Virus record (IMG/VR): IMGVR_UViG_3300028844_006119 | Coordinates: 32,001 to 96,000 of that record | From: a virus | Length of the DNA: 64,000 bases | Direction: 5' to 3' (one strand) | Shown here: in pieces, positions 3-58,944 of the stretch | How positions within the stretch are numbered: the stretch's first letter is position 1 | Layout: each line of letters starts with the position of its first letter | The notes under the pieces: model-generated | What the model was told of the DNA's origin: nothing | Databases searched by the model: none | Seen by the model: only the letters and a program-made list of their open reading frames with translations | Position numbers and translations under genes: made by a program

Positions 3-473
3 TCCGCGTTGACCAGCAGGAACATTGCAAGCCTGCCTGACATTTTGGCCCCTAAGGGGTGGAAGCCTAAGCCCGCCTCAGAAGGGGGGTACCTGTGGGA
101 GTACGACGCAGGCACCAGCGCCAAGGACATCAAACTCACCGGCGGGTTCCACTCCAACGCCGTCACGGGGAAGAGCCACATAGGCCTTAAGGGGGTCTCT
201 GAGATCTCCGAGGTCGGGCAGAAGCTGAAGTTTGGCTCTCGTCTGGAGTTCCTGGACCTAGAGACGACCCGGGAGCTGGGCTCTCGTTTGATGCCCGAGG
301 AGAAGGTGACCCTTGGCGAAGACACCTCAATCCGACTAGACCCTAGAGCGCCCCGCGCGAAGAGGGTTACCGAGTACTTGCAGGATATTGGTGGAACTTC
401 TGCTCTCCGTAAGTTAGACTTTGGGTCTACTGGATTTACTACGACGCCGGACGGCCGAGGAGGAAAAGGATGA
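3..473 (+). CDS. Hypothetical protein, 5'-truncated by the window edge
   Basis: Frame is open from position 3; its TGA overlaps the next ATG (ATGA). Confidence 0.6.
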   Translation, partial: SALTSRNIASLPDILAPKGWKPKPASEGGYLWEYDAGTSAKDIKLTGGFHSNAVTGKSHIGLKGVSEISEVGQKLKFGSRLEFLDLETTRELGSRLMPEEKVTLGEDTSIRLDPRAPRAKRVTEYLQDIGGTSALRKLDFGSTGFTTTPDGRGGKG

Positions 474-706
474 TTTCTCAGGACATGCTTCAGGCATTCA
501 ATGAGGCGCTGCTCAAGGAAGCTGTTGCCCCTCCGGCTGCGGCAGCGAAGATGAGTGGCAAGATGAAGGGACTTCTGGGCCTCGGAGCTGCTGCCGGCGT
601 GGGAGCGGGAGTTCTCGGAGAGCAGGCCAAGGATGATATCGTCCAAGGACGGCTGTCCAGAAAGCAGATGGCTCGCGGCCAGGGCGTTCACCACCTGCTT
701 ACCTGA
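470..706 (+). CDS. Small KxA-motif, glycine-zipper protein (putative virion cargo)
   Basis: GAGG/GGA-rich upstream; N-terminal AFNEALLKEA followed by GLLGLGAAAGVGAGVLG. Confidence 0.65.
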   Translation: MISQDMLQAFNEALLKEAVAPPAAAAKMSGKMKGLLGLGAAAGVGAGVLGEQAKDDIVQGRLSRKQMARGQGVHHLLT

Positions 707-713
707 GAGTCTC

Positions 714-968
714 ATGAGCGACAAACACAGTCTTTTCCAGAGATCCCCGGAGGCCCTTCTCAGTGAAGGTGCCGAGCGATCTAACGTGGCCGTCACCAAT
801 CAGATGCTGGACGACTTGTTCTCCAGAAGAGATGTGATGGGGAAGAAGGCGTATTCCCAGCTCCGCTCCCTGTTCACGGGCAAGGAGCACTATGGGCGCA
901 ACACTCGCCTCGGCATGTCCGCGAATGAATCCTCTAAGCTCGTAAATCGGGCCTTTAGTGGTGAGTAG
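714..968 (+). CDS. Hypothetical protein (84 aa)
   Basis: ATG at 714 just after the previous stop; fills the gap before the sigma gene. Confidence 0.55.
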   Translation: MSDKHSLFQRSPEALLSEGAERSNVAVTNQMLDDLFSRRDVMGKKAYSQLRSLFTGKEHYGRNTRLGMSANESSKLVNRAFSGE

Positions 969-1791
969 CCTGAGAGATAGGCTGCAGAAGATCGCAGCGA
1001 AGGACCCCTACGAGTTTCCCAAGACGTGGGGCACCAAGGATCGCAAGACAGGTGAGGTTACCCCTTTCTACGGTAAAGCCGCGAAAGAGGTAACTATGTG
1101 GAGGACATGGAAGGAGTCCGGGGAAGATCCCGACCACCTTGCCCCTCTTCTCCAGTCTCTAAATCCTGTGATCAACAGTAATGTTCTGCGCCACCGCGCC
1201 CCACGCATTCACAAGCCGGTGATAGAGGCCGAGGCTCGAACTCTCACCGTGAAGGCACTGCGGAGGTACAACCCCTCTCGGGGGACCATGGTCTCCTCCC
1301 ACGTACACAACAATCTGAAAGGTCTGAACCGCTTTGTAAAGAAGCACCAGAACTTCACACGCATCGTGGAGACTCAGGCCAATAAAATTGGTGATTACGA
1401 CAGGGCAAAATCCTCGTTGGCAGAGGAGCTGGGCAGGGACCCAACTACCTTAGAGATCTCGGACAGAATTAAGTTGTCCCCGAAGAAGGTGGCGCGTCTC
1501 GAGAAGGAGCTCCGTAAGGACAAGTTCTCTGCACTGCCCTCTGACGATATGATCAGTGCCAACCCTTTCGAGAAGACGCTCCCTGAATCCCGAGAGATCA
1601 TTGAGATGCTCCCCTACGAGCTCACAATGAACGAGCAGGCGGTGTTCAACCACCTGTACGGGCGTGGCGGCTTTCGCAAGGACCGGATGACCAAAAGTAT
1701 CGCCAAGAAGTTGGGCTGGTCGGAGTCCAAGGTATCGCAAGTAAAGAACTCCATTATCAAGAAGTACCACGCGTACGAGGACTCTTTTTAA
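958..1791 (+). CDS. Sigma70-family (FliA/SigF-like) RNA polymerase sigma factor
   Basis: Region 2 KALRRYNPSRGTMVSSHV; region 3 LAEELGRDPTTLEISDRI; region 4 LTMNEQAVFNHLYG...IAKKLGWSESKVSQ (HTH). Start is GTG 958 or 961. Confidence 0.88.
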   Translation: MVSSLRDRLQKIAAKDPYEFPKTWGTKDRKTGEVTPFYGKAAKEVTMWRTWKESGEDPDHLAPLLQSLNPVINSNVLRHRAPRIHKPVIEAEARTLTVKALRRYNPSRGTMVSSHVHNNLKGLNRFVKKHQNFTRIVETQANKIGDYDRAKSSLAEELGRDPTTLEISDRIKLSPKKVARLEKELRKDKFSALPSDDMISANPFEKTLPESREIIEMLPYELTMNEQAVFNHLYGRGGFRKDRMTKSIAKKLGWSESKVSQVKNSIIKKYHAYEDSF

Positions 1792-2027
1792 TGGCCGTGT
1801 CCGACATTGGCGAGCTCATAGATCTGATAGAGGACGAGCTGCAGCCCGTGCTCGACGAGGAGGAAAAGCGCCTTGTTGAGGAGGCACTGCTCCTAAAGCT
1901 AGTCTACGAGGGTATGACAGGAACGGCGTTTTCTGATAAAACACCCACAGAGGTAGCCGAGGCGTTCACCGTCCGGTTCATCACAGAAATGGCAGTAACC
2001 GTGGCCCCGGCAGTGGAGCCGGAATAG
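1791..2027 (+). CDS. Acidic hypothetical protein
   Basis: TAATG overlap with the sigma stop; GAGGA upstream. Confidence 0.65.
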   Translation: MAVSDIGELIDLIEDELQPVLDEEEKRLVEEALLLKLVYEGMTGTAFSDKTPTEVAEAFTVRFITEMAVTVAPAVEPE

Positions 2028-6247: not shown

Positions 6248-7149
6248 TGACGACCGCGACGTTCTATCTCTGGGATTCTGTCGATCAAACGGCCGCTACC
6301 GCGGTCGAGTCCGCGCAAGTCCGCCTGTACTCCAGCGATGGGACCGCCTTCATTACATACGGGACTACTGACAGCGCGGGGGAGGTCGCCCTAGACGTGC
6401 CGGATGCTACCTACTGGGTCCGATTCTTCAAGACTGGGTATGCCTTTCCGTCTAAGAGGTCTGTGGTCGTGGACGCAGCCGCAGCCAACAACACATTCGA
6501 CACCGAAGCGGAGAACCTAGAAATCCTGCCCCCATCCTCCGCATCAAATCTGTGTAGGGTCAGTGGGTACGTGGTCGGCGCAGGAGGGCAGCCCCGAAAG
6601 GGGGCAACGTTCCAGTTCATGCTTACGCACCTACGGCACATAGTCAGTGGCCGCCCCATCACCGCATCCAAGGTCACTTGCAGATCGGATGAGTATGGGT
6701 ACACAGAGGTCGAGCTTATCCAGGGGGCCTTTTACGATGTTGTCGTAGAGGGACTGGATGACCAGGTCTTCGTCGCTCAGGTTCCTGAGCTTGGGTACGC
6801 AAAGCTGACCGAGGTTATCTGGCCGTACCCCGCACGAGTCACTTTGTCTTCTGCAACGGTATCAGTTGCCGCTGCGGCAGAAGAGGATGTGACGGTTACT
6901 TTGGTCCTGAGCAGCGGGGTAGTCATGCCCCTACCCTCGGATGCCGCTGCGGGAGCCGTGGGGTTCTCTCTGGCAGCGTCCTCGAGCGACACAGATGTAG
7001 CTACGGTTGTCCTGGACGGGACTACGGCCACCATTACTGGCGTGGCCTCCGGGTCTGCCACCATTTCCTTTACCGCTGCAGGAAGCTACGAAGAGAGGTT
7101 CCCCGAGATCTCCGTGTCTCTGGATTCTATTGCAGTCACGGTGCCGTAA
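6247..7149 (+). CDS. Virion protein with a C-terminal Big_2-type Ig-like domain
   Basis: SSSDTDVATVV...ATITGVASGSATISFTA is the Big_2 pattern; N-terminal GTTDSAGEV...YWVRFFKTGY prealbumin-like pattern. Confidence 0.7.
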   Translation: MTTATFYLWDSVDQTAATAVESAQVRLYSSDGTAFITYGTTDSAGEVALDVPDATYWVRFFKTGYAFPSKRSVVVDAAAANNTFDTEAENLEILPPSSASNLCRVSGYVVGAGGQPRKGATFQFMLTHLRHIVSGRPITASKVTCRSDEYGYTEVELIQGAFYDVVVEGLDDQVFVAQVPELGYAKLTEVIWPYPARVTLSSATVSVAAAAEEDVTVTLVLSSGVVMPLPSDAAAGAVGFSLAASSSDTDVATVVLDGTTATITGVASGSATISFTAAGSYEERFPEISVSLDSIAVTVP

Positions 7150-8576
7150 TGGCTACGAAGATCAGTACGGGGGACATCTCTGCCGCATCGGGGGAGGCAG
7201 TACGCCGAAAAAGGTCCAACTCAGAGGACACTAAGGGGGCCTCGGCAGATCAGATTCGGTGGGACACCTTGCGGGGCAGGGCCTGTAGGCTCTTCCTGTC
7301 CGATCCCGATGCCAGAGTGCAGCTGTACTATTTGGCCTCTAACACCCTTTCCTCGGAGTTACGGACTTTTCACGCTCTGGTGTGTGAAGCAATCTCCCTC
7401 GCAGAGTCAAGCTTCTCCTCCAAGGAGACGTCTGCCAGCATAGCGGCGGACCTCTCGACCAAAAAGGCGGCGCTGTATTTCGAGGTGGGAAACATGAGGG
7501 CATCATCTCCCTCTGCGCCGGTCCTGCCCACCACCCTAAAAGAGGCCGCCGCCTCGTATGCCAACGCCGTAGCTAAGCAGAGCAGCCGGAATAGAAAAAT
7601 CGAGAGAGGCGATTCCGCGGGGGCATCGCTGCCTGCCCTCCTCGCAGAAGCAACCAAGAGAGGTAGGGCCTGCGTATCCCTGATCTCTGTGATGGAGCAG
7701 ACGGGCGGGCGGCTAGAGACGCTCCTCGGGCGCTGGGCGGTGGCTCCGATATTGCCGGGACTGGCTGCCTCCCTCCGGGATCCATCTCTTGCCCCTAAAG
7801 AGGAGCTGCTTAAGGTTGTGGCGGCAGTAGGGGCCTATGATGCCTTCACTGCCCCAGCTACCACCCTTCTGTTGGTCCACACAGGGGTAGGGTTTCCCTC
7901 GAAGCTTGTGCCCCGCATGGATGGGGCCGTACTTACTCTACTGGACGCTAATGGGAAAGAAACGGCCCCGGCTACCTTGCTGGTGTCCCAGGGCTGCGTT
8001 GTAACGGCAGGCACCGCTACTGCGACGATCTTATCGATCTCAGGTAGGGAGCTTACCCTGTCCTCCGAGATTTCGGTTTCAGGAGGGATCAGTATCGCAA
8101 CCAAGGCCCAAAGTGAGCTCTCCGCCTTCGTGGGGACGACACTGGGCGCGATCTCCGCTAACTCCCTGACTATGCCGGCCTCACTCCTGCGTGGAGTCTC
8201 GTTTCGCAAACTGAACAGGCCAGAGGCGTACAAAATCGTGAAGGGGCTGGTTCAGGTGGCTACGGAGCTGGCAGATATTACTACTGAGGCCTCCCGCTCT
8301 GCGGCACTACTGGGGGTTGATGTCCCTGTGACCAAGGGCCTTCTATCTGCAGTACGAGAGTTCTCTCCCTCGGTCGCGGAGTCCTCCCGCCGAGGAGCCT
8401 CCGAGATATTGGACGCTTTGCGGGCCGACGGCCTCGACGTGGTGGAGACTGCGCTTCTGTCCTCGGACCTCTGGTCACTGGATACGCCGAGCGTACACGA
8501 CGCCAGAAGATCGTCCAAAACAGCCTATCAGGTGGGGCAGCTTATGGAGATCATCAACCCGGATCTGAAGGTATAG
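7149..8576 (+). CDS. Hypothetical protein in tail module
   Basis: 475-aa ORF with TAATG overlap. Confidence 0.65.
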   Translation: MATKISTGDISAASGEAVRRKRSNSEDTKGASADQIRWDTLRGRACRLFLSDPDARVQLYYLASNTLSSELRTFHALVCEAISLAESSFSSKETSASIAADLSTKKAALYFEVGNMRASSPSAPVLPTTLKEAAASYANAVAKQSSRNRKIERGDSAGASLPALLAEATKRGRACVSLISVMEQTGGRLETLLGRWAVAPILPGLAASLRDPSLAPKEELLKVVAAVGAYDAFTAPATTLLLVHTGVGFPSKLVPRMDGAVLTLLDANGKETAPATLLVSQGCVVTAGTATATILSISGRELTLSSEISVSGGISIATKAQSELSAFVGTTLGAISANSLTMPASLLRGVSFRKLNRPEAYKIVKGLVQVATELADITTEASRSAALLGVDVPVTKGLLSAVREFSPSVAESSRRGASEILDALRADGLDVVETALLSSDLWSLDTPSVHDARRSSKTAYQVGQLMEIINPDLKV

Positions 8577-8578
8577 GT

Positions 8579-8998
8579 ATGGACGAAACCCTAGACAATC
8601 AGATGGTGAAGATCATCCGGGATGCCCGAGGGTCTATCTCTCAGGCACTCTCTATGATGCAACAGCTCAACGCCAGAGACCTGGCTAACGGAGTGACTCT
8701 CGAGTCCTCCATAGAGGACGCCATCTACGAAATAGACAGCGAGCCCGACTTCGTAGACCCCTACCTGGACGCTGCGTATGGGCTGGCCGAGGCCGAGGCG
8801 GGGCAGGCGCTTACCTTCGGCATCCTGCAGACCCCTAGGAGGATCGGGAGGCTGCAGAGAGTGAGAGACCTGAAGGTGACGCTCTTCGGAGGGAATGTAC
8901 GGGTCGTTAGCGACGAAGGCGTCGTTTCCACCGACAGCATCGGTGGTCTTCTCGATCAACTAAAGAACGTTTCAGTTGATGTCCCGGAGGGCCCATGA
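8579..8998 (+). CDS. Hypothetical protein in tail module
   Basis: 139-aa ORF tightly coupled to both neighbours. Confidence 0.65.
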   Translation: MDETLDNQMVKIIRDARGSISQALSMMQQLNARDLANGVTLESSIEDAIYEIDSEPDFVDPYLDAAYGLAEAEAGQALTFGILQTPRRIGRLQRVRDLKVTLFGGNVRVVSDEGVVSTDSIGGLLDQLKNVSVDVPEGP

Positions 8999-9648
8999 GC
9001 GACTTCCCCCTTTTGGCCGTCAACCAGGTGGCCCATGTAGACAACATCGATTTCTTCGGAGGGGGCTCGTCGGGGATCTTGTCGATGGATATTCGGGGCA
9101 GGGACTTTAAGGGCCTAAATGCCGTAATAATCAACGGCCACAGGTCCCCTACCTTTGTCGTCTTGAGTGACACTCGGCTCCTTGCGGATGTACCGAGAAG
9201 TCAGCTGGGAGGGCCAATTAGGACTATCACAGTGCTAAAGTCGGATGCGTCAACGTCATCCCAAGGATCAGTCATTAGTTTTGAAGCTGTGGGGACCGCC
9301 ACAGTAGTGCCTTCGTCTACATTCCTAGTCCAGAAGGTCCTGAAGTATTTATTCACCACCCCCGGGTCAGATATCTTTTCCCCCACTTCCGGAAGCGGGC
9401 TGCTGGGGCTGCTGGGAACCACGGAGACCGCAGCAGAAAGCCTGGCGCTCCTCGCCAGGCTTCGGGTAAGGGAAGCCCTTTCCCAGATTATACAGGACCA
9501 GGCCCTCTCGTCCGCCCCGATAGAGGAGAAGGTTCAGTCGATAGAGGTCCTCTCCGCGTCATTCAGCAGGACGGATACCTCGCTGGACATTAGACTGGCT
9601 GTGATATCTATGGCCGGGCAGCGAGTCGTAGCGGGCCTAACCATCTAA
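8995..9648 (+). CDS. Baseplate wedge/sheath initiator (T4 gp25-like) with an N-terminal IPT/TIG-like segment
   Basis: LVQKVLKYLFTTPGSDIFSPTSGSGL matches the gp25/GPW pattern; immediately upstream of the baseplate J-like gene. Confidence 0.7.
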   Translation: MSDFPLLAVNQVAHVDNIDFFGGGSSGILSMDIRGRDFKGLNAVIINGHRSPTFVVLSDTRLLADVPRSQLGGPIRTITVLKSDASTSSQGSVISFEAVGTATVVPSSTFLVQKVLKYLFTTPGSDIFSPTSGSGLLGLLGTTETAAESLALLARLRVREALSQIIQDQALSSAPIEEKVQSIEVLSASFSRTDTSLDIRLAVISMAGQRVVAGLTI

Positions 9649-36698: not shown

Positions 36699-36964
36699 CT
36701 GTTCAACTCCTGTCGAAAGGCTCTCATTGGCTTTACTGAGAGTAGGAGCATCCTAACCTTCGACGTCGTCCCGTGGACAGGGTCTCGTAGCGTTTTCGGA
36801 CGCATAGCTGAGCGCAGACGGAAGAGGGACTTGAAAGCTACTTCCTCCTGTCTGGTCAACGCTTCTCTTATGACGTTGTTCTGCGTGTCCATGAACAAGC
36901 GCACCGCGTTGCGCGGCATGCCCGTCCTCTTAGCGATCTCTCGCTCCATCTCCTTATCCGTCAT
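36677..36964 (-). CDS. HU/IHF-like DNA-binding protein
   Basis: MTDKEMEREIAKRTG...IREAL...RDPVHG...VKPMRAFRQEL. Confidence 0.75.
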   Translation of the reverse strand: MTDKEMEREIAKRTGMPRNAVRLFMDTQNNVIREALTRQEEVAFKSLFRLRSAMRPKTLRDPVHGTTSKVRMLLLSVKPMRAFRQELNRWTSTQS

Positions 36965-39612: not shown

Positions 39613-39656
39613 GAGGTGTAGGAAGACTTAGAGCCTTCCTACACCCCGCTTATGAC
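39613..39656 (-). promoter_or_regulatory. GTCATAA motif plus strong hairpin upstream of polA
   Basis: TTATGAC at 39650-56; inverted repeat GGTGTAGGAAG 39615-25 / CTTCCTACACC 39635-45, extendable by G-U pairs on the - strand RNA. Confidence 0.55.
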
Positions 39657-46679: not shown

Positions 46680-46757
46680 GGGCTATGCCTCCTATTAAGT
46701 GCCAAATTTGTTATGACGCGGTATGGTAAGATCTACATGCTCGTCCGGAGTTTCCAC
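46680..46757. promoter_or_regulatory. Divergent promoter region between replication and head blocks
   Basis: AT-richer gap between divergent starts; TTATGAC at 46711-17. Confidence 0.55.
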
Positions 46758-47936
46758 ATGTCTGTAATCGACCACCATGACGACCTATGCGAGTCCTTCC
46801 TGGCCTCTGTAGACCCCAATCAGGTGTCTGAGATCATGAAGACCTCTTCCTGGAGGGAGTCCTCGGACCTCCTGGACCGGGACTTTGCGCTCATCCTGGT
46901 GGACGAGGTCGGCAAGGAGCACAGGAAGTTTGCCTGTTTCGACTCCGGCAATGCGCTGATGTCGGAGTGGTACCTTTTGCACGCTGAGCACGGCCTAGAC
47001 AGCGACTCCGTCAAGACCGCCGCCGCCAACATCGTAGACTCCCTGGAGCACTACGGACTGACCCCTGCACCCGCTTCCGTTTACCTGGCAGACCGTACTT
47101 CCGGGGCAGATTCTCGGAGGGTTAAGGTAGCTGGGGCTCCAATGTCTGACTCCCACAGCTCTATTCGCGCCGCAAAGGGTGGGGCGATTGGGGGAGCAGC
47201 TCTGGGAGCGATTTCTGGAGCTAAGGGAGGGGGGACTCCTCTTCAGATCGCCGGTCGGATGCTAGGCAGAGGCGCCGCAGTGGGCACCGCTGGCGCGCTG
47301 GGAGTGGGCGGTATGGACTACACAGCCAAGAACGCCTCGGCGTTTGACTACGTAGCAGACGCTGCCGCTTCGTGGGACGACCTCGATCCGTACGACAGAC
47401 ACGAAGTTGCTGTAAATCTGGTGAAGGTCGCCTCCGCAGGCGGAGCAACCGTTCCTGGCCACATTCGCGCCTACAGCGGCACTTCCTTGAGCCCGAACTT
47501 CAAGAAGATCGCAGAGGCCCGCAGGGACTTCACCTCCCAGCAAGACACCCAGGACGGGTACACGCGGTTGTCGAAGATGGCCGCGGCCATGGACCCTGAT
47601 GATGTCGTCGAGGCCATGTACCTCCTAGACGAGCAGGCCCAGATCAACCACCGCTACGGAAGTCGCATCCCCGACCCAGTTCTGTCCGTCTATGGCACCA
47701 CCAAGGAGGCAGAGTTCTCCTGGACCCACGGCGGCGACTATGTGAACGAGAGGATGCTAAAGAGGTACGCGGGCAGCGATTCCTCCCAGAAGATGGAAGA
47801 TGTCTTCACCGATGATCTCAAGGATCTCTTTCGGAGAGACCCCATCTCTGTGTTCAAGCGGATGCCCGACGAGCAGAAGATCCTCCTCGCTAGAATGGCC
47901 TCCCAGTCCCGAGATAACAATAACGGCGGATACTGA
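46758..47936 (+). CDS. Putative head (core/scaffold-type) protein with multiple KxA sites and a glycine-zipper cassette
   Basis: GGAG RBS before ATG 46758; 8 of 18 Lys are in K-x-A (hand count); upstream of portal. Confidence 0.6.
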   Translation: MSVIDHHDDLCESFLASVDPNQVSEIMKTSSWRESSDLLDRDFALILVDEVGKEHRKFACFDSGNALMSEWYLLHAEHGLDSDSVKTAAANIVDSLEHYGLTPAPASVYLADRTSGADSRRVKVAGAPMSDSHSSIRAAKGGAIGGAALGAISGAKGGGTPLQIAGRMLGRGAAVGTAGALGVGGMDYTAKNASAFDYVADAAASWDDLDPYDRHEVAVNLVKVASAGGATVPGHIRAYSGTSLSPNFKKIAEARRDFTSQQDTQDGYTRLSKMAAAMDPDDVVEAMYLLDEQAQINHRYGSRIPDPVLSVYGTTKEAEFSWTHGGDYVNERMLKRYAGSDSSQKMEDVFTDDLKDLFRRDPISVFKRMPDEQKILLARMASQSRDNNNGGY

Positions 47937-52535: not shown

Positions 52536-52546
52536 TCTTCACTCCT

Positions 52547-52584
52547 TTTTGGTCGGGCTATGTCCCGACCAAAAGAGTTATGAC
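52547..52584 (-). promoter_or_regulatory. GTCATAA motif plus 11-bp hairpin in the divergent gap before the RNAP gene
   Basis: TTTTGGTCGGG 52547-57 / CCCGACCAAAA 52564-74; TTATGAC 52578-84. Confidence 0.55.
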
Positions 52585-52605: not shown

Positions 52606-55600
52606 ATGGCAAACCTGGCTCCAGGGGACGCATACCGCCTCCTCGAAGAAAGAACCAAAGAAGCCATCAAGAGTCACTTCCCGGTCGAAGGCCGAGAAAA
52701 CAGACTCGAGTTGGTAGATATTTCCACGGATGAGGATGCCTCCTCTGCGTCTGGAAAGCACCACAGCTACAACCACACGTCTCAGACGGACGCAAAGCTC
52801 CATGACAGAACATGGGGTCCCAACATCGTAGGGACGTTCCGGCTCGTAAACATGGAGACGGGTAAGGTCGTAGACCAGGGGAAGCGCACCCTGGGCCAGC
52901 TGCCTAAGATCACCAGTCGGTACAGCTACATCGTTGAGGGGAACGAACGTCAAGTCGACAGCGTCTTCCGCCTTAACCCCGGCGCCTATCACGTAGAGGC
53001 CGACAACGGAGATCTTCTTGCGAAGTGGAACGTCGCCGCAGGATCCAAGGTTGGTTCGTTCAAGATCTCCATTGAGCGTAAGCATCCCAAGAAACTGGGG
53101 GCCATGTACCTGATTGTGAAGAGTGGCACGCAGTCTACTCGCAAGATCCCGGCGTACGGAATCCTCTCCGCCCTGGGAGTATCCGACCCTGCTATGCGCA
53201 AGGCGTGGGGAGAATCCGTATTCGAGGTAAACCGCAGGATCTCCAAGCCCAACGACCTTCTAAACTTTCACGAAGCGGTGGAGAAGCGCCGAGCGGGCAA
53301 GGATAAGTACGAGACGCCTACCCTCTCCGAGGCCCGCAAGTTTGCGAAGGAAGTCTTCGAGGGCGCAGAAGTAAACCCCGATACGATGCTTGCTACGCTG
53401 GGCAAGAAGTTCACCAACATCTCTGGGGACGCTCTCCTGGCCTCCTCGGCCAAGGTGGTGGGAATTAGCAAGGGGACCGCGGAGCCTGACGACAGACAGT
53501 CTCTCTCCAACAAGCGCCTCTTCGGGATGGAAGATTTCATCCACGAGGAGATCTCTAAGGGATCGTCTCGGTTCGAGATGCAGAAGAAGATCCGGAACAA
53601 CCTCGATCGTAAGGGCAAGATCTCAGACATTCTTCCGGCTGCGTCCGTGGGGTATGGGAGGCTGATCACGCGCAAGTTCAAGGCTGCCCAACTTCCGACC
53701 CAGACAAATCCCCTTCAGTTCGTGTCTAACCACACGAAGACGACCATTCTCGGTCAGGCGTTTGGCGGAATTAAGGGAGACAATGTCAACCTTGATCGAG
53801 ACAAGCTGATCAATCCCTCTCACTTGGGGCTGCTTGATCCTCTGCAGACACCAGAGAACACCTCTACCGGCGTCTCGCTGCACATCCCAATCGGGGCCAA
53901 TAAGAAAGGTCAGCAGCTTTACACAAAAGTCCTGAACGTAAAGACCGGGAAGTTCGAGAATAAAAACGCAGCGGAGATGGAGAAGGCCGTCGTTGCATAC
54001 CCCGACCAGGTGAAAATCACCCGCACGAAGACCGGAGCCACAGTCCGGCCCCTGCACCCCGACGTTGTCGTCTATGACTCAGACCGCAGCACGGCCAAGA
54101 GGCCCTGGAAGGACGTCCAGTACGTTCTTCCCAACGCAAAGACACTATTCTCGGTTAGCGCAAACATGATCCCGTTCGTTCAGAACGACAACGGGAACCG
54201 AGCCATGATGGCCGCTAAGCACCAGGAGCAAGCAGTCTCTCTGAAAGACCGAGAAGCCCCGCTGGTTCAGGCTGAATTTGCGGGAGGGGTCTCATTCGAC
54301 CAGATGATCGGCAAGTTGAACTCTACTACCGCTAGTGTGGCCGGAACTGTGTCGAGAATCACCAAGGATTCTGTTTACATAAAGGGCGCGGCAGGAAAAG
54401 CGGTGTCCCACCCGATCTACAACCACCATCCCCTCAACGGCACGAAGCACATGATGCATTCGACTCCGGTTGTGAAGGTGGGAGACAAGGTAAAGGTTGG
54501 ACAGCTCATCGCCGACTCTAACTTCACCAAGGACGGCACCCTATCCTTGGGTACGAATCTTCGCGTCGGGTATCTGCCGTACAAGGGCTACAACTTTGAG
54601 GACGGGACCGTCATCTCGGAGACTGCCGCCAAGAAGTTGGTGTCCACCCATCTCCACATCGAAGAAGCGGAGATGTTCGCCAACGTAGTCGTAAACAGGA
54701 AGCTGTGGAGAAACTTCGCTGGGGCCAACAAGGCCACGGCAGAAGTGATGAGCAAGCTGGACGAGGATGGCGTCATCAAGGAGGGAGCCAAGGTAGTTCC
54801 CGACGATGTGTTGATCACTCGGCTGGTCAAGGCGGAGATGACTCGAGAGAACCAGGACGTCAAGAGGTCCCTGAAGAAGGCTATCCGGGACTACAAAGAC
54901 GCCGCAGTGGTCTGGAAGCATGAGTACGGCGGCACTGTCGTTCGAGTCGTCAAGACTGCGAAGAAGATCCAGGTTCATATCCGCACTGAGCAGACAATGG
55001 AGCCCGGAGATAAGCTGTCGGGGCGTCACGGTAACAAGGGAATCATCACCAAGATCCTGCCTGACGATATGATGCCCAAGGATAAGAGCGGGAAGCCCGT
55101 CCATGTCCTGATGAGCCCCGCAGGCGTCCCATCCCGTATGAATGTCGGGCAGGTCCTGGAGACGGCTGCAAGTAAGATTGCCCGCAAGACGGGAAAGTCG
55201 TACAAGATCGAGAACTTCGATGCCTCCGTTGATTACTCCCAGAAGATTAAGGATGAGCTCAAGAAGCACAATCTTTCCGATACGGAGGAGCTTTTCGATC
55301 CCGAAACCGGAGAGTCTCTCGGGCAGATCTTTACGGGTGAGCAGTACATGCTCAAGCTGGACCACCAGGCCGAAAAGAAGGTGTCTGCCCGATCTGGAGG
55401 ATCTGGGTATGCCTATCGGCCCACCGGCGAGGCAATCTCCGGTTCGGGCATCGGGAAGGGCGGGCAACGAATTGGTGGCCTAGACACCTACGCTCTGCTG
55501 GCACACGGAGCCAAGAGAAATCTGATGGAGATGCAGACCTACAAGTCTGACTCCGAGCAGGCCCGGGATGTCTGGATTCGGGTGATGCAGGGACAGCGTC

Positions 55601-58600
55601 CGCCTCCCCCCAAGGTCCCTACCTCGATGGAGCACTTCAAGAAGTACCTACGGGCTACGGGGGTCTATGCCGAGGAGACTGGCGGTGTGTACTCCCTGTC
55701 TCCCATGACGGATGCTCAGACCCTAGGGCAGAGTAAAGGCGCGCTCGTAGCGGCGGATAAGACGCTGGTGGCAAAGGGGATGCTCACCAAGGAAGAAAAG
55801 GGCGGCCTGTTTGATAGGGGCAAGACCGGAGGCATGGAGGGCAAATTCTGGTCCCACATCGACATGAAGACCCGGATGCCCAACCCAATGTTTGAGACCG
55901 CAATCCAGTCTCTGCTCGGCCTAAAAAAGGCGGAGTTTGAAAAGCTGGTCTCCGAAAACGGAGCCGTGGGGAAGAAGTCCGGGTTCCAGATCATTGAGGA
56001 GCGTCTGCGCGCCATCAAGGTTCCCTCCGAGCTAAAGAAGGCGGAAGAGGAGCTGAAGACCGCTAAGAAGGCGGACCTCAACAAGAAGTACAAGAAGGTC
56101 CGGTATCTTCGCGCGCTGAAGGAGCTCAAGACCTCTCCGGTAGACGCCTATACGAACCAGCATCTCCCAGTGCTGCCTCCCATCTTGAGGCCGGTAAAGA
56201 TTGGATACGACGGCACACAGATGATTGATGCCGCGAATCAGTACTACGCCATGATCGGCCAGATGACCAAGCAGGTAGAGCAGGGGAAGAAGGAGGGGCT
56301 GCCGAAGGCCGACATCTTCAAGAGAGAAGCGCAGCTATACGACCTGGTCCGTGCGTTGCGCCTGAATGGCATGACTCAGGAAGGCAGGGAGCTTCCCAGT
56401 CTGATGGACAAGATGACGGGCTCGAAGCCCAAACACTCATTCTTTCAGCAGGGTGTTCTGTCGAAGCGGCAGGACTTGTCGGGCCGGACGGTCGTTACCC
56501 CAGAGCCCGCATTGAAGATGGACCAGGTGGGCATCCCTGTCGATATGGCGATGGAGACGTACAAGCCGTTCGTCATCAGAGAGCTGTGGCGTCGTATGGG
56601 AATCGCCAAGAGCCCTGGCGAAGCAAGACGCATGATCAAGAAGAACCACCCCTCCGCCAAGAAAGCGTTGGAGAGGGTGATTACTCAGCGTCCAGTAATC
56701 ATGAAGAGAGACCCTGCGCTTCATATGTTTTCTACTATGGCCTTCAAGCCAGTTCTTGTGCCGGGGAAGTCGATCAAGATCCACCCACTTGTGTGCGGCG
56801 GCTTCAACGCGGACTTCGATGGCGACACCATGGCCATGTATGTGCCCGTGACTGAGGAAGCTGCGGAGGAGGCCCTGGAGAAGATGCTCCCGTCTAAGAA
56901 CCTGTTTTCCCCCACACACGGGGGCCTCATGTTGACCCCCAGCCAGGATGCCGTTCTCGGCATCTACCAGGCTACAAAGTGGGGCAAGAAGGTTCCTGGA
57001 ATCCTTACGGAGGAGCAGGCGCTTCAGCAGCTGAAGAACGGAAAGTTGAAGTCTGACAACGTCATCACGGTCAAGGGCCACAAGAAGCCTACGACTGCGG
57101 GAAGACTGCGGATCAACAAGACCCTGCCCGGCAGCGTAAAGAATGATCCCGAGCTTCTATACGATCCCAAATTCCGCATGGCCAAGGGCGCTATGAAGGG
57201 ATTCGCAACTCGAGTAGCCCAATCCGATCCGGATGAGTTCTCCGGCATGATCGACGGATGGAAGGAGTTGGGGTTCACGCTGTCATATAAGAACGGTAGT
57301 TCGTTCAGCCTGAATGATTTTCACGACGGTAAGACCATCCGAGACAACGTCCTGAAGAAGTACAAGAAGGAAGAGAATGTGATTCGCAAGTCTGGTATTT
57401 CTCGTAAAAAGAAGGACCAGAAGATTATCGCCCTGTACCAAAAAGCAGGCGAGGAACTCAAGGTTATCGGGCAGGCCCACTACAAGGCTAAAAAAGACAA
57501 CCGTATGTGGGAGTGGGCTGAAAGCGGTGCGCGAAGCAACTGGGGCCAGTTCGGTCAGTTGGTCATGGGGCCCATGCTTGTGCAGAACCCCTCCAAGGAG
57601 TTTGTGCCTGTACCGCTCACTACCTCGTTTGGGGAGGGGCTCCCGATCTCTCAGTACTGGGCAGCGCTGCATGGCGCCCGAAAGGGAACCCTGGATCGCG
57701 CAGCAGGAACTAGAGACCCCGGAGCGCTCACCAAGGAGTTGATCAACACAGTCATTGCGTACTCTGTGACCGACAAGGACTGTGGTACTTCCAAGGGCAC
57801 TCTGATGTCCGTCATGGCGAAGGACATCGAGGGCAGGTACCTGGCGCGCGAGGTGCCCCTGAAGAGCGGGGACAAACTGACCCGTGGAACCCTGGTCAGC
57901 TCGGCATTGTTGACCAGGATGAAGAACTCCGGCCCCCAGAAGGTCCTGGTGCGCTCCCCTCTTCACTGCCAGCAGGCAACGGGCATTTGCGCCACTTGCT
58001 ATGGGCTTAACGAGAGAGGAACTCTCTACAAAAAGGGAACCAACGTTGGCATCATTGCCGGCCATGCCCTCGGAGAGCCAGTCACTCAGATGCAGATGCG
58101 GACGTTCCACACGGGCGGCGCCGGAACCGACGGGCTGACGGATTACTTCCAGCAGGCAAAGGACCTCTTCAAGGTGCCCGAGAAGCTACGAGGTGCCGCT
58201 ACGTTGGCGGAGGTCACCGGCAGGGTAGATAAAATCGAGACGGATGCCCTTGGCGGTAAGAAGGTCACGATTGGCGGAAAGCTGCACGTTGTCCCCCACT
58301 CGACCCCACTCCTCCCGAAGATTAGGGTCGGGGCGGACGTGAAGAAGACAGACGCGCTCTCTGTTGGTCGGAAAAATCCGCACGACATCCTTCGGATCTC
58401 CAACAACATCCATGCTGTCCGCAATCACCTCACGACAGAGCTAGACTCTCTGTACGTAGAGACTACGGGGAACGAGAGGCGGAGGAACATCGAGACGGTG
58501 ATCCGTGCGATGACCGATGTTGCGCAGGTGACCGAAAGCTCTGAGCACGAGAACCTGCTCAATGGGCAGATGATGTCTCTTTCCCGGATTGAGAACAGGA

Positions 58601-58944
58601 ACAAAGAGCTGAAGAAGTTGGGACTCCCCACCATCCAGCACAAGCCTCTGCTGAAGCCTATGGACAAAGTCCCGCTTTCCGGTAAAGAAGACTGGATGGC
58701 GCGACTAAACTTCCAGAGGCTTAAGGACACCCTTATCGAGGGCGGGGCACAGAACTGGAAGTCAGATATCCAGGGTCACCCCATCCCAGGCCTGGCGCAT
58801 GGTGCGGCGTTTGGACTGCAAGCCCCAAAGACCGCAGCCATAAGCTCCCCTTTCCCCAAGCCCCCCAAACCTGTTAAACTTCCGGCACCTGTGCCTGCCG
58901 CCCCGCAGGGCATCTTCGGGTCCTTCTTTGGAGCAAAGTCATGA
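52606..58944 (+). CDS. rpoBC: Fused beta-beta' (RpoB-RpoC) DNA-directed RNA polymerase, single 2112-aa chain
   Basis: Beta motifs QTPE, NRAMM, GYNFED, GDKLSGRHGNKG, PSRMNVGQ, YMLKLDH, GGQRIG; beta' motifs LPVLPPILRP, KRQDLSGR, NADFDGD (56806-56826), PSQD, HGARKG, RSPLHC, CATCYG, GEPVTQMQMRTFHTGG; no internal stop. Confidence 0.96.
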   Translation: MANLAPGDAYRLLEERTKEAIKSHFPVEGRENRLELVDISTDEDASSASGKHHSYNHTSQTDAKLHDRTWGPNIVGTFRLVNMETGKVVDQGKRTLGQLPKITSRYSYIVEGNERQVDSVFRLNPGAYHVEADNGDLLAKWNVAAGSKVGSFKISIERKHPKKLGAMYLIVKSGTQSTRKIPAYGILSALGVSDPAMRKAWGESVFEVNRRISKPNDLLNFHEAVEKRRAGKDKYETPTLSEARKFAKEVFEGAEVNPDTMLATLGKKFTNISGDALLASSAKVVGISKGTAEPDDRQSLSNKRLFGMEDFIHEEISKGSSRFEMQKKIRNNLDRKGKISDILPAASVGYGRLITRKFKAAQLPTQTNPLQFVSNHTKTTILGQAFGGIKGDNVNLDRDKLINPSHLGLLDPLQTPENTSTGVSLHIPIGANKKGQQLYTKVLNVKTGKFENKNAAEMEKAVVAYPDQVKITRTKTGATVRPLHPDVVVYDSDRSTAKRPWKDVQYVLPNAKTLFSVSANMIPFVQNDNGNRAMMAAKHQEQAVSLKDREAPLVQAEFAGGVSFDQMIGKLNSTTASVAGTVSRITKDSVYIKGAAGKAVSHPIYNHHPLNGTKHMMHSTPVVKVGDKVKVGQLIADSNFTKDGTLSLGTNLRVGYLPYKGYNFEDGTVISETAAKKLVSTHLHIEEAEMFANVVVNRKLWRNFAGANKATAEVMSKLDEDGVIKEGAKVVPDDVLITRLVKAEMTRENQDVKRSLKKAIRDYKDAAVVWKHEYGGTVVRVVKTAKKIQVHIRTEQTMEPGDKLSGRHGNKGIITKILPDDMMPKDKSGKPVHVLMSPAGVPSRMNVGQVLETAASKIARKTGKSYKIENFDASVDYSQKIKDELKKHNLSDTEELFDPETGESLGQIFTGEQYMLKLDHQAEKKVSARSGGSGYAYRPTGEAISGSGIGKGGQRIGGLDTYALLAHGAKRNLMEMQTYKSDSEQARDVWIRVMQGQRPPPPKVPTSMEHFKKYLRATGVYAEETGGVYSLSPMTDAQTLGQSKGALVAADKTLVAKGMLTKEEKGGLFDRGKTGGMEGKFWSHIDMKTRMPNPMFETAIQSLLGLKKAEFEKLVSENGAVGKKSGFQIIEERLRAIKVPSELKKAEEELKTAKKADLNKKYKKVRYLRALKELKTSPVDAYTNQHLPVLPPILRPVKIGYDGTQMIDAANQYYAMIGQMTKQVEQGKKEGLPKADIFKREAQLYDLVRALRLNGMTQEGRELPSLMDKMTGSKPKHSFFQQGVLSKRQDLSGRTVVTPEPALKMDQVGIPVDMAMETYKPFVIRELWRRMGIAKSPGEARRMIKKNHPSAKKALERVITQRPVIMKRDPALHMFSTMAFKPVLVPGKSIKIHPLVCGGFNADFDGDTMAMYVPVTEEAAEEALEKMLPSKNLFSPTHGGLMLTPSQDAVLGIYQATKWGKKVPGILTEEQALQQLKNGKLKSDNVITVKGHKKPTTAGRLRINKTLPGSVKNDPELLYDPKFRMAKGAMKGFATRVAQSDPDEFSGMIDGWKELGFTLSYKNGSSFSLNDFHDGKTIRDNVLKKYKKEENVIRKSGISRKKKDQKIIALYQKAGEELKVIGQAHYKAKKDNRMWEWAESGARSNWGQFGQLVMGPMLVQNPSKEFVPVPLTTSFGEGLPISQYWAALHGARKGTLDRAAGTRDPGALTKELINTVIAYSVTDKDCGTSKGTLMSVMAKDIEGRYLAREVPLKSGDKLTRGTLVSSALLTRMKNSGPQKVLVRSPLHCQQATGICATCYGLNERGTLYKKGTNVGIIAGHALGEPVTQMQMRTFHTGGAGTDGLTDYFQQAKDLFKVPEKLRGAATLAEVTGRVDKIETDALGGKKVTIGGKLHVVPHSTPLLPKIRVGADVKKTDALSVGRKNPHDILRISNNIHAVRNHLTTELDSLYVETTGNERRRNIETVIRAMTDVAQVTESSEHENLLNGQMMSLSRIENRNKELKKLGLPTIQHKPLLKPMDKVPLSGKEDWMARLNFQRLKDTLIEGGAQNWKSDIQGHPIPGLAHGAAFGLQAPKTAAISSPFPKPPKPVKLPAPVPAAPQGIFGSFFGAKS

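What the first reader, a model, noticed from the sequence alone, without database searches (positions are those of the whole stretch)
958..1791. Sigma factor with a cargo-like leader and an altered core-binding surface: possible private sigma-RNAP pair
Seen: the sigma gene lies among structural genes and starts with LRDRLQKIAA. Its region 2.2 reads IEAEARTLTVKAL rather than the usual DL.QEG.LGL. The RNAP beta' coiled coil (~56227-56360) reads DAANQYYAMIGQMTKQ versus E. coli SDLNDLYRRVINRNNR, placing Met at the R275 position by eye alignment. Known: sigma region 2.2 and this coiled coil form the main holoenzyme interface. Inference: a co-evolved, orthogonal two-protein holoenzyme delivered with the DNA.
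Basis: partly seen in the sequence, partly recalled or inferred. Interest (0 to 1): 0.75.

Follow-up and report, generated by a model that had tools for sequence, protein, structure and literature searches.

The report
Phage sigma paired with own polymerase
An uncultured large phage encodes a bacterial-type sigma factor whose polymerase-binding surface has been rebuilt to fit the equally rebuilt docking helices of the phage's own one-chain RNA polymerase. The pair probably travels in the virus particle to switch on the phage's early genes.

Summary
ORF 958-1791 is a three-domain sigma-70-family factor. Its region 2.2 (VIEAEARTLTVKAL) has lost the D-L-x-Q-E-G core-binding motif. The phage's 2112-aa fused beta-beta' RNA polymerase (RNAP; 52606-58944) has Met at the E. 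coli beta' R275 position. Only 1 of 19 predicted sigma-contact positions matches E. coli, against 35% identity in the surrounding segment.

- **Co-occurrence:** sigma and polymerase occur together in 17 of 19 related viral contigs.
- **Complex prediction:** it docks sigma region 2.1/2.2 on these clamp helices (ipSAE 0.75, best control 0.00). This may partly reflect likeness to solved holoenzymes.
- **Other subunits:** no alpha, omega or second sigma was found in the 77%-complete genome.
- **Promoter:** TAAAA-N14-G(T/G)CATAA, FliA-like, has 19 of its 20 core sites on the minus strand, ahead of replication and early-type genes. It is absent before sigma, polymerase and virion genes.
- **Leader:** the sigma's N-terminal LRDRLQKIA|A carries a hydrophobic-x-K-x-A motif. 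It recurs in 61 of 121 divergent sigma relatives (14 expected) and is dense in head-module proteins, so it is probably a head-protease or cargo signal.
- **Virion evidence:** in the distant relative Salmonella phage Arash, sigma, beta and beta' were all found by virion mass spectrometry.

Orthogonality to host core and packaging in this phage remain untested. This scan has met the same system on other phage DNA.

The parts
958..1791 (+). Sigma-70-family factor gene (277 aa from GTG 958; probable true start GTG 961, 276 aa)
970..999 (+). N-terminal leader LRDRLQKIAA, containing the hydrophobic-x-K-x-A motif; putative cut after KIA
   Evidence: The motif is conserved in sigma relatives and shared with head-module proteins.
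1219..1260 (+). Region 2.2 (residues 88-101, VIEAEARTLTVKAL), the predicted contact surface for the beta' clamp helices
   Evidence: alignment; contacts at residues 82-99.
714..968 (+). Conserved 84-aa ORF whose stop overlaps the sigma start (translational coupling). Function unknown.
   Evidence: 36-68% identical directly upstream of sigma in six related contigs; no Pfam hit.
52606..58944 (+). Single-chain beta-beta' RNA polymerase, 2112 aa, with GRHGNKG and NADFDGD motifs
56227..56360 (+). Beta' clamp helices (coiled coil), residues 1208-1252. M1220 = E. coli R275, R1240 = E295, L1247 = A302.
   Evidence: alignment; contacts at 1215-1247.
54583..54660 (+). Beta flap-tip region (about residues 660-685), the usual docking site of sigma region 4. 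Present but divergent.
   Evidence: The coordinates are approximate, converted from the alignment.
52578..52584 (-). GTCATAA promoter core, 22 nt from the polymerase start codon and pointing away from it
   Evidence: The same arrangement occurs in G005 and G006 and with GGTATAAG in G010.
46711..46717 (-). GTCATAA promoter core at the head of the minus-strand replication module
39650..39656 (-). GTCATAA promoter core 82 nt upstream of the family A DNA polymerase gene
36868..36874 (-). GTCATAA site upstream of small minus-strand genes and the RecA-like gene

Best explanation
**What it is.** The gene encodes a group-3-like (FliA/SigB-like) sigma-70-family factor. It is most likely the dedicated initiation subunit of the phage's own single-chain beta-beta' RNA polymerase.

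**How it binds.** Binding is inferred to follow the canonical geometry. Sigma regions 2.1/2.2 dock on the beta' clamp helices, and region 4 presumably docks on the retained flap-tip helix. Nearly every contact residue is replaced on both partners. For example, the Arg275 and Gln406 equivalents become Met and Ala, and the Glu295 equivalent becomes Arg.

**What it reads.** The holoenzyme most likely reads a phage-specific promoter, TAAAA-N14-G(T/G)CATAA. About 20 copies precede the minus-strand replication and early-type operons.

**How it is delivered.** Sigma and polymerase genes lie in virion-gene blocks on the other strand and lack this promoter. They are therefore probably made late. Sigma carries an N-terminal hydrophobic-x-K-x-A leader of the kind found on head-module proteins, probably a head-maturation-protease or capsid-targeting signal. 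Both proteins are probably packaged and injected to start the next infection.

**Shown versus inferred.**
- Shown by computation: family membership, altered residues, co-occurrence, motif statistics.
- Inferred: binding, promoter assignment, packaging, independence from host subunits.
For: **It is a sigma factor**
-.

**The interface is remade on both sides**
-.
- Only 1 of 19 predicted beta' contact positions is identical to E. coli, against 35% in the same segment (P about 0.003).
- Predicted sigma contacts fall on the equivalents of sigma70 L402, D403, Q406, E407, N409 and M413.

**Predicted complex**
- Beta' 1010-1480 was folded with sigma 1-140.
- ipSAE was 0.75 (three runs: 0.74-0.77); the best of three controls was 0.00.
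- The tool's calibration: 58 of 80 solved complexes and 2 of 110 mismatched pairs reached the mark. These counts hold only roughly here because my own alignments were used.
- The runs share at least 79% of contacts, and the partner's pLDDT is at least 74.

**Co-inheritance**
- 17 of 19 viral contigs with a sigma relative encode the polymerase.
- The two exceptions are a 22%-complete fragment and a 45-kb phage with only a 41-residue match.
- The two proteins diverge in parallel: sigma 62 to 27% identity, polymerase 66 to 31%.

**No competing subunits**
- No alpha, omega or second sigma was found in the genome.

**Promoter**
- 9 of 10 GTCATAA sites lie in the 10% of the genome that is intergenic.
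- 19 of 20 G[TG]CATAA sites are on the minus strand, most of them 25-85 nt upstream of minus-strand genes.
- Those genes include family A DNA polymerase, DnaG-like primase, DnaB-like helicase, RecA, uracil-DNA glycosylase and RusA.
- The position-weight-matrix consensus is T.AAAA-N14-GKCATAA, with FliA-like spacing.
- The motif is strand-biased in relatives G005 (23 versus 3) and G006 (2 versus 20).
- It appears as GGTATAAG in the more distant G010.

**Leader**
-.

**Packaging in a relative**
- Arash virion mass spectrometry found beta (most spectra of any protein), beta' and sigma. Sigma had 24 unique peptides and 100% coverage (PMC10585845).
- The gene order around sigma is shared with Arash.
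Against: - No experiment exists for this phage: no transcript ends, no binding data, no virion proteome.
- The complex prediction can pass by likeness to the many solved sigma-core structures. The tool says a pass shows likeness, not binding.
- Co-occurrence and parallel divergence are expected for any two core genes of one phage lineage.
- The Arash preparation contained 116 of about 270 proteins, including ribonucleotide reductases. Presence there is weak proof of packaging. The Arash and Vibrio D69 sigmas also lack the N-terminal leader.
- The polymerase has no conserved leader, and its K-x-A site count is at chance.
- The total number of GKCATAA sites is not above chance. Only their strand, position and flanks are non-random.
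- The protease assignment rests on one weak PHROG hit (9.6e-5).
- The genome is 77% complete, so a missing alpha, omega or second sigma cannot be excluded.
- What transcribes the sigma, polymerase and virion genes is unknown.
Confidence: 0.65

Rival explanations
1. Classical phage sigma. The protein redirects the host core RNA polymerase to phage promoters, as T4 gp55, SPO1 gp28/gp34 or phiEco32 gp36 do. The phage beta-beta' enzyme then initiates with another factor or none.
For: Every characterised phage-encoded sigma-70-family protein acts on host core (reviews read). Regions 3 and 4 remain recognisably bacterial. The promoter resembles host FliA promoters.
Against: The D-L-x-Q-E-G core-binding motif, kept by sigmas that bind bacterial core, is gone. 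The sigma is found with the phage polymerase in 17 of 19 related contigs spanning 27-94% identity and different G+C contents. The phage clamp helices are changed at the matching positions. The promoter is conserved between phages that probably infect different hosts.
Confidence: 0.1
2. Cognate pair, but not private. The sigma serves the phage polymerase and can also bind host core, or host sigmas can use the phage enzyme. There is then no orthogonality.
For: The docking geometry is predicted to be canonical. E407 and K414 equivalents are retained. The flap-tip helix is present. Nothing here tested cross-binding.
Against: At 18 of 19 predicted beta' contact positions the residue differs from E. 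coli, including a charge reversal at the E295 position and loss of four arginines. Sigma lacks the D403 and Q406 equivalents. These are suggestive only.
Confidence: 0.2
3. Cognate pair that is not packaged. Sigma and polymerase are made after infection, with host RNAP transcribing them. They then transcribe the replication genes as a middle class, in the manner of T7. The N-terminal K-x-A motif would serve another purpose, such as regulated proteolysis or partner binding.
For: No virion data exist for this clade. The Arash preparation was proteome-rich (116 proteins). The polymerase has no leader. Relatives with leaderless sigmas exist.
Against: Both genes sit inside virion-gene blocks, and sigma is translationally coupled to its neighbours. 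Neither gene has the phage promoter. The sigma leader matches the motif that is dense in proteins lying between a protease-like gene and the major head protein, and that sits at the head protein's own N-terminus. RNAP beta gave the most spectra of any protein in Arash virions.
Confidence: 0.25

Closest known systems
Salmonella phage Arash gp10 (sigma), gp206 and gp216 (RNAP); Vibrio phages D69/D181/D148
   Same: They have homologous sigma (27-32% identity over residues 41-192) and homologous bacterial-type RNAP. Sigma sits at the same place in the tail/baseplate module. In Arash all three proteins were detected in virions.
   Different: Their RNAP is split: beta plus the front of beta' in one chain, the rest of beta' in another. 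Here it is a single 2112-aa chain. Their sigmas lack the N-terminal leader. The Arash paper annotates the proteins but does not analyse pairing, interface or promoters. The D69 sigma is annotated as hypothetical.
Virion and non-virion multisubunit RNAPs of jumbo phages phiKZ and AR9, with specificity subunits gp68 and gp226
   Same: They are phage-encoded beta/beta'-type polymerases without alpha or omega. One set is packaged and injected. A phage-specific initiation subunit reads phage-specific promoters (reviews read).
   Different: Those enzymes are very divergent and split into 4-5 chains. According to these reviews they have no sigma-70-family homologue. Here the core is a single bacterial-like chain and the factor is a true sigma-70-family protein with sigma2, sigma3 and sigma4 domains.
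Bacterial FliA/WhiG (sigma28) and SigB/F/G group-3 sigma factors
   Same: They are the best NCBIfam and Foldseek matches. They share the three-domain layout without region 1.1. The promoter has TAAA at -35 and the same spacing as TAAA-N15-GCCGATAA (the FliA consensus is from my own knowledge).
   Different: The score is 36 bits against a family cut-off of 190. Regions 2.1-2.2 are unalignable by family models. The core-binding motif and the aromatic melting residues are replaced. The -10 core is G(T/G)CATAA. The partner is a phage polymerase.
Phage sigma factors that redirect host core (T4 gp55, SPO1 gp28/gp34, phiEco32 gp36)
   Same: They are phage-encoded sigma-family proteins that impose phage promoter specificity.
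   Different: Those phages encode no beta/beta' and depend on host core. Here a cognate phage core co-occurs, and the core-binding surface is remade.
T4 internal proteins with a capsid-targeting sequence cleaved by the gp21 prohead protease; N4 virion RNAP
   Same: A short N-terminal leader ends in the head protease's recognition motif on proteins carried in the head and injected. A polymerase is delivered with the DNA to transcribe early genes. (This is my own knowledge of T4 and N4.)
   Different: The motif here is hydrophobic-x-K-x-A followed by A/S/G, not L/I-x-E. Cleavage and packaging are not demonstrated. N4's enzyme is a single-subunit T7-like polymerase without sigma.

Membership tests
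Sigma-70 family | Sigma3 domain (region 3) | tested here: met
   PF04539 scores 34.5 bits against a cut-off of 25.3, at residues 143-181. It was also precomputed on nearly all of the 37 homologues.
Sigma-70 family | Sigma4 helix-turn-helix domain (region 4.2) | tested here: met
   Pfam r4 is below its cut-off (13.5 against 24.1 bits). The family profile aligns to RpoS/RpoD through region 4.2, to residues 270-274, at about 1e-12. The AF2 model has confident helices at 209-276.
Sigma-70 family | Sigma2 domain fold (regions 1.2-2.4) | tested here: met
   The profile aligns from position 38-45 to WhiG (6pfv) and SigB (8x6g) chains. Foldseek aligns 250-300 columns to whole sigma chains. pLDDT is 82-93 over residues 41-130.
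Sigma-70 family | Sequence match to the region 2 model (PF04542) | tested here: not met
   There was no PF04542 hit at E up to 10 on the protein or at E up to 1 in the whole genome.
Sigma-70 family | Region 2.2 core-binding motif D-L-x-Q-E-G | tested here: not met
   It reads V-I-E-A-E-A. Only the E407 equivalent is kept.
Sigma-70 family | Aromatic -10 melting residues (sigma70 Y430, W433, W434) | tested here: not met
   They are H115, N118 and N119. Some alternative sigmas also lack them (my own knowledge).
FliA/WhiG subfamily (TIGR02479) | Score above the curated subfamily cut-off | tested here: not met
   36.2 bits against 189.6. It is the best NCBIfam hit but far below the cut-off.
Phage virion-packaged multisubunit RNAP systems (phiKZ/AR9 type) | Phage-encoded beta/beta' homologues without alpha or omega | tested here: met
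   beta-beta'; no alpha or omega in the 77%-complete genome.
Phage virion-packaged multisubunit RNAP systems (phiKZ/AR9 type) | Polymerase present in the virion | not testable with these tools
   The only data come from a relative: Arash virion mass spectrometry.
Phage virion-packaged multisubunit RNAP systems (phiKZ/AR9 type) | Beta and beta' split into 4-5 chains, with a non-sigma specificity subunit | tested here: not met
   There is one 2112-aa chain, and the factor is a sigma-70-family protein.
Capsid-targeting / prohead-protease leader (T4 type) | Short N-terminal leader ending in a motif shared with head proteins of the same phage | tested here: met
   - [LIVMF]xKxA[ASG] is about 4 times denser in the first 30 residues of the phage's proteins than elsewhere (12 of 38 sites).
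- It is dense in proteins lying between the protease-like gene and the major head protein.
- It occurs at residue 23 of the head protein.
- It is present at residues 4-23 in 57 of 61 motif-bearing sigma representatives; 61 of 121 carry it against 14.2 expected.
Capsid-targeting / prohead-protease leader (T4 type) | Actual cleavage by the head protease, and presence in the head | not testable with these tools
   The protease is assigned only by a weak PHROG hit (9.6e-5), and it has no PDB sequence relative.

The most novel reading that the evidence does not exclude
A minimal, self-sufficient bacterial-type holoenzyme made of only two polypeptides: a single-chain beta-beta' and a sigma-70-family factor. 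Its rebuilt sigma2/clamp-helix interface would make it orthogonal to the host enzyme. It would be loaded into the capsid through a protease-cleaved K-x-A leader and injected to fire a private TAAAA-N14-GKCATAA promoter set. This would be a third, previously undescribed solution for phage transcriptional autonomy, beside the T7/N4-type and phiKZ-type enzymes.
Probability: 0.35. Interest if true: 0.85.

Novelty: new variant of a known kind. Interest (0 to 1): 0.7.

Why it matters
Reviews of phage transcription describe two kinds of large phage. Some carry their own multisubunit polymerases and have no sigma homologue. Others carry sigma factors and borrow the host core. This lineage does both, and it is large: 519 clusters at 50% identity score below 1e-30. 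If confirmed, four things would follow.

- It would give the smallest known bacterial-type holoenzyme, with no alpha or omega and one catalytic chain.
- It would be a natural experiment in re-coding the universally conserved sigma-core interface.
- It would provide a ready orthogonal polymerase/sigma/promoter triplet for synthetic biology.
- It would be a new example of enzyme delivery through the capsid with a simple leader code.

Cultured relatives (Arash on Salmonella, D69 on Vibrio) make all of this directly testable.

Tried and rejected
**Searches that found nothing**
- A second sigma, alpha and omega were sought in the genome and not found. The weak region-4-like hits are a MerR-type HTH protein and a ParB/KorB protein.
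- PHROG and Pfam scans of most neighbours returned nothing. The structural context therefore rests on a few hits plus gene order shared with Arash.
- The protease-like protein has no sequence relative in the PDB.
- Four literature searches found no description of a phage beta-beta' plus sigma pair other than the Arash genome paper. The library does not cover subscription journals.

**Analyses that failed or gave no signal**
- A pairwise MAFFT of sigma against sigma70 misaligned region 2.2 by about 25 residues (second half). I discarded it in favour of the HMM alignment and the 17-sequence alignment.
- The count of GKCATAA is not above chance (4 in the window against 6.8 expected). The case rests on strand, position and flanking conservation, not abundance.
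- I looked for a leader on the polymerase. Its N-terminal 'TKEA' is part of the conserved beta N-terminus and is not kept in other clades. Its K-x-A count equals expectation.
- No clear promoter motif was found for plus-strand (virion, sigma, polymerase) genes.

**Steps that could not be run**
- Testing the phage sigma against a host core was impossible.
Full report
**Source.** The window is bases 32001-96000 of a 142,186-bp IMG/VR virus record that is judged 77% complete. G+C is about 57% throughout.

**The sigma gene.**
- ORF 958-1791(+) encodes 277 aa.
- Pfam finds Sigma70_r3 above its cut-off, a weak r4, and no r2. PHROG 351 is 'RNA polymerase sigma factor'.
- A word-indexed search found 37 homologue clusters, all metagenomic. 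Full-length conservation holds down to about 57% identity, on contigs of up to 168 kb.
- A profile search of 1.84 billion representatives found 519 clusters below 1e-30, so the family is large.
- The family profile matches RpoS/RpoD/SigA chains in the PDB at about 1e-12, from the second half of region 2.2 to region 4.2. It matches WhiG and SigB chains from profile position 38-45.
- The AlphaFold model has mean pLDDT 78, and above 82 over residues 41-130. By Foldseek it retrieves only sigma factors, with B. subtilis SigD and RpoS first.
- NCBIfam ranks FliA/WhiG and SigB/F/G first, but at 36 bits against cut-offs near 190-234. Every match starts near residue 98.
- It is therefore a true three-domain sigma-70-family protein, closest to group 3 and outside every curated bacterial subfamily. 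Regions 2.1-2.2 are beyond the reach of family models.

**Start and neighbours.**
- Homologues begin M-S-[DS]-[LI]-R-D-R-L-Q-K, so the second GTG (961) is the likely start.
- The start overlaps the stop (966-968) of an 84-aa ORF. That ORF is conserved directly upstream of sigma in six related contigs at 36-68% identity. It has no Pfam hit.
- Downstream lie a weak major-tail hit and a 2294-aa protein with a baseplate-wedge domain (2.5e-21).
- Upstream lies a 1328-aa protein with a weak endolysin hit.
- tblastn shows the order 546-aa / 1328-aa / sigma / 2294-aa / 1645-aa corresponds to Arash gp6 / gp8 / gp10 / gp13 / gp14. In Arash the flanking products are virion proteins by mass spectrometry.
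- 'Among structural genes' is therefore correct, and the arrangement is old.

**Region 2.2.** The HMM alignment and a 17-sequence MAFFT alignment that includes E. coli RpoD (RpoD taken from NC_000913) agree.

| E. coli sigma70 | This sigma |
|---|---|
| L402 | P87 |
| D403 | V88 |
| L404 | I89 |
| Q406 | A91 |
| E407 | E92 |
| G408 | A93 |
| N409 | R94 |
| M413 | V98 |
| K414 | K99 |
| Y430 | H115 |
| W433 / W434 | N118 / N119 |

Across the phage clades the Q406 position is A, N, L or T, never Q. The D403 position is never D.

**The polymerase.**
- ORF 52606-58944 is one 2112-aa protein. It carries beta (Rpb2_6, Rpb2_7) and then beta' (Rpb1_2, Rpb1_3, Rpb1_5) domains. It has the GRHGNKG and NADFDGD motifs.
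- BLAST against E. coli shows the cores are retained. Beta SI1 and SI2 and beta' SI3 are absent, and the beta' N-terminus is shortened.
- The flap-tip helix is present but divergent.
- HMMER alignments to solved beta' chains and MAFFT with E. coli RpoC give the equivalences below.

| E. coli beta' | Phage residue |
|---|---|
| R270 | A1215 |
| R271 | M1216 |
| N274 | Q1219 |
| R275 | M1220 |
| R278 | Q1223 |
| E295 | R1240 |
| A302 | L1247 |

- In other clades the R275 position is L or A.
- Two bacterial beta' chains (PDB 6j9e and 6wvj) have an identical helix-1 sequence in this stretch, which also matches E. coli.

**Do the two proteins go together?**
- A scan of viral contigs found 19 loci with a sigma relative, and 17 of them encode the polymerase. 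The exceptions are a 22%-complete fragment and a 45-kb phage with only a 41-residue match.
- Where sigma is at least 35% identical, the polymerase is one 2074-2126-aa frame. In the Arash-like clade it is split into beta plus the front of beta', and the rest of beta'.
- Identities fall in parallel.
- No alpha (PF01000, PF01193), omega (PF01192) or other sigma was found in the genome.
- I folded beta' 1010-1480 (alignment A2) with sigma 1-140 (alignment A1). The score was ipSAE 0.75 and the best of three controls was 0.00. The tool's calibration is 58 of 80 solved complexes and 2 of 110 mismatched pairs reaching the mark; these counts hold only roughly here. The runs share at least 79% of contacts, and the partner's pLDDT is at least 74.
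- The confident contacts are beta' 1215-1247, which correspond to E. coli 270-302, and sigma 56-65 and 82-99.
- The predicted contacts use the positions that correspond to beta' R275, E295 and A302 and to sigma70 L402-M413. As far as I recall, these are the residues where core-binding mutations were mapped.
- Because many holoenzymes are solved, this pass shows that the canonical docking is still geometrically compatible. It does not show that the proteins bind.
- At the 19 beta' contact positions only P288 is unchanged, against 35% identity over the same 372-column segment (P about 0.003).

**Promoters.**
- An earlier first-reader note on another genome suggested a motif. I then ran an unbiased intergenic k-mer enrichment.
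- GTCATAA was the top 7-mer: 9 of its 10 copies lie in the 10% of the genome that is intergenic, and all 10 are on the minus strand.
- G[TG]CATAA has 20 sites, 19 of them on the minus strand and most 25-85 nt upstream of minus-strand genes.
- The aligned sites give T.AAAA-N14-G(T/G)CATAA plus a weaker downstream TTG. A weight-matrix scan finds only one plus-strand site, before a ParB-like gene.
- The minus-strand genes in the window are family A DNA polymerase, DnaG-like primase, DnaB-like helicase, SF2 helicase, uracil-DNA glycosylase, RecA and RusA.
- No site precedes sigma, the polymerase or the virion genes. One site lies 22 nt from the polymerase start, pointing away from it.
- The total count is not above chance. 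The signal lies in strand, place and flanks.
- The heptamer is strongly strand-biased in G005 (23 versus 3; reversed-pattern control 1 and 2) and in G006 (2 versus 20).
- In the complete 181-kb genome G010 (sigma 36% identical, G+C 49%), the top intergenic 8-mer is GGTATAAG. It has a similar upstream CAAAA box, and again one copy lies just upstream of the polymerase gene and faces away.
- A promoter that follows the sigma/polymerase pair across phages of different base composition argues for a phage-borne reader.
- The -35 box and spacing resemble FliA promoters (from my own knowledge), in line with the sigma's nearest relatives.

**The leader.**
- Earlier first-reader notes on this genome proposed a K-x-A signal, and I tested it.
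- In this phage's proteins, [LIVMF]xKxA[ASG] occurs 12 times in the first 30 residues (4290 positions) and 26 times elsewhere (38,381 positions).
- Among 50%-identity representatives of the sigma family with an N-terminal extension of at least 10 residues, 61 of 121 carry hydrophobic-x-K-x-A there, against 14.2 expected from shuffles. In 57 of the 61 the motif starts at residues 4-23, although the extensions are otherwise unalignable.
- The genome's head module contains a large terminase (4e-60), a 657-aa protein with a weak head-maturation-protease hit, and a weak major-head-protein hit.
- The two proteins between protease and head protein carry 6-7 K-x-A sites each. The head protein has STKTA|AAS at residue 23, and the protease-like protein has VTKTA|SG at residue 37.
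- This is the pattern expected of a head-protease recognition code, as in T4 and phiKZ (my own knowledge). It makes the sigma's LRDRLQKIA|A a plausible cleaved cargo leader.
- The polymerase has no such leader. The Arash and D69 sigmas have no N-terminal extension.

**Packaging evidence from a relative.** In Arash virions, RNAP beta (gp206) gave the most spectra of any protein. Beta' (gp216) and sigma (gp10; 24 unique peptides, 100% coverage) were also found. However, 116 proteins were detected in all, including metabolic enzymes (PMC10585845).

**Literature.** Reviews from 2020, 2021 and 2026 state that phage multisubunit polymerases lack sigma homologues and that sigma-encoding large phages lack polymerases. 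My searches found only the Arash genome paper for this combination.

**Earlier scan notes.** This scan has already met the same system on other phage DNA, and follow-up agents reached similar readings. I treat those notes as leads, not evidence. The promoter and leader claims were re-derived here.

**Verdict.**
- The best reading is a cognate sigma for a phage-encoded single-chain polymerase, with a re-coded but geometrically canonical interface. The pair reads a private FliA-like promoter on early and replication genes and is probably delivered in the capsid.
- Pairing is likely (about 0.8).
- Packaging is plausible (about 0.55).
- Orthogonality and the sufficiency of two proteins are open.

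Noticed in passing
window 46758-47936, and genome positions 94945-96933, 103837-104394, 107170-109178 and 110532-111668 (window coordinates plus 32000): K-x-A-[ASG] sites are dense in head-module proteins, with 5-12 K-x-A sites per protein. One sits at residue 23 of the putative major head protein and one at residue 37 of the protease-like protein. This is probably the head-maturation-protease recognition code.
   Followed up: partly
window 55630-55980 (beta-beta' residues about 1010-1123): The beta' N-terminal part is about 100 aa, against 178 in E. coli. By eye, the stretch that holds the zinc-binding cysteines in E. coli appears to be missing. Beta SI1 and SI2 and beta' SI3 are also absent.
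   Followed up: partly
window 52540-52577: A G+C-rich hairpin (GGTCGGG...CCCGACC) lies immediately beside the GTCATAA promoter in the 557-bp gap upstream of the polymerase gene. It would sit at the 5' end of the divergent transcript.
   Followed up: no
window 1791-2027: A 78-aa, very acidic ORF (19 D/E against 5 K/R) starts at the sigma stop codon. It has no family hit and no detectable homologue by tblastn, although relatives have a gap of similar size there. It could be a sigma partner.
   Followed up: partly
window 470-706: A 78-aa ORF is coupled by an ATGA overlap to the 1328-aa virion protein. It begins with FNEALLKEAV, the same leader pattern, followed by a Gly/Ala-rich hydrophobic stretch.
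   Followed up: no
window 59365-60564: The 399-aa protein two genes after the polymerase has a weak baseplate-spike OB-domain hit (Phage_base_V, 3e-4). The polymerase gene therefore also sits next to virion genes.
   Followed up: no
G010 (loci L048-L057), for example 137539(-) and 137570(+): In a complete 181-kb relative the promoter core is GGTATAAG rather than G(T/G)CATAA. This one-base shift parallels the different region 2.3/2.4 sequence of its sigma. Two copies face each other in one intergenic gap.
   Followed up: partly
genome 122595-123127 (outside the window): Two adjacent small genes share the N-terminal peptide DLEVLHFFSDEVEK and then diverge right after the K-x-A site.
   Followed up: no
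genome about 6800-9200 (outside the window): Several intergenic stretches look like tRNA genes on the minus strand, for example sequences ending in GAGCTA-type arms. I did not run the tRNA finder on them.
   Followed up: no
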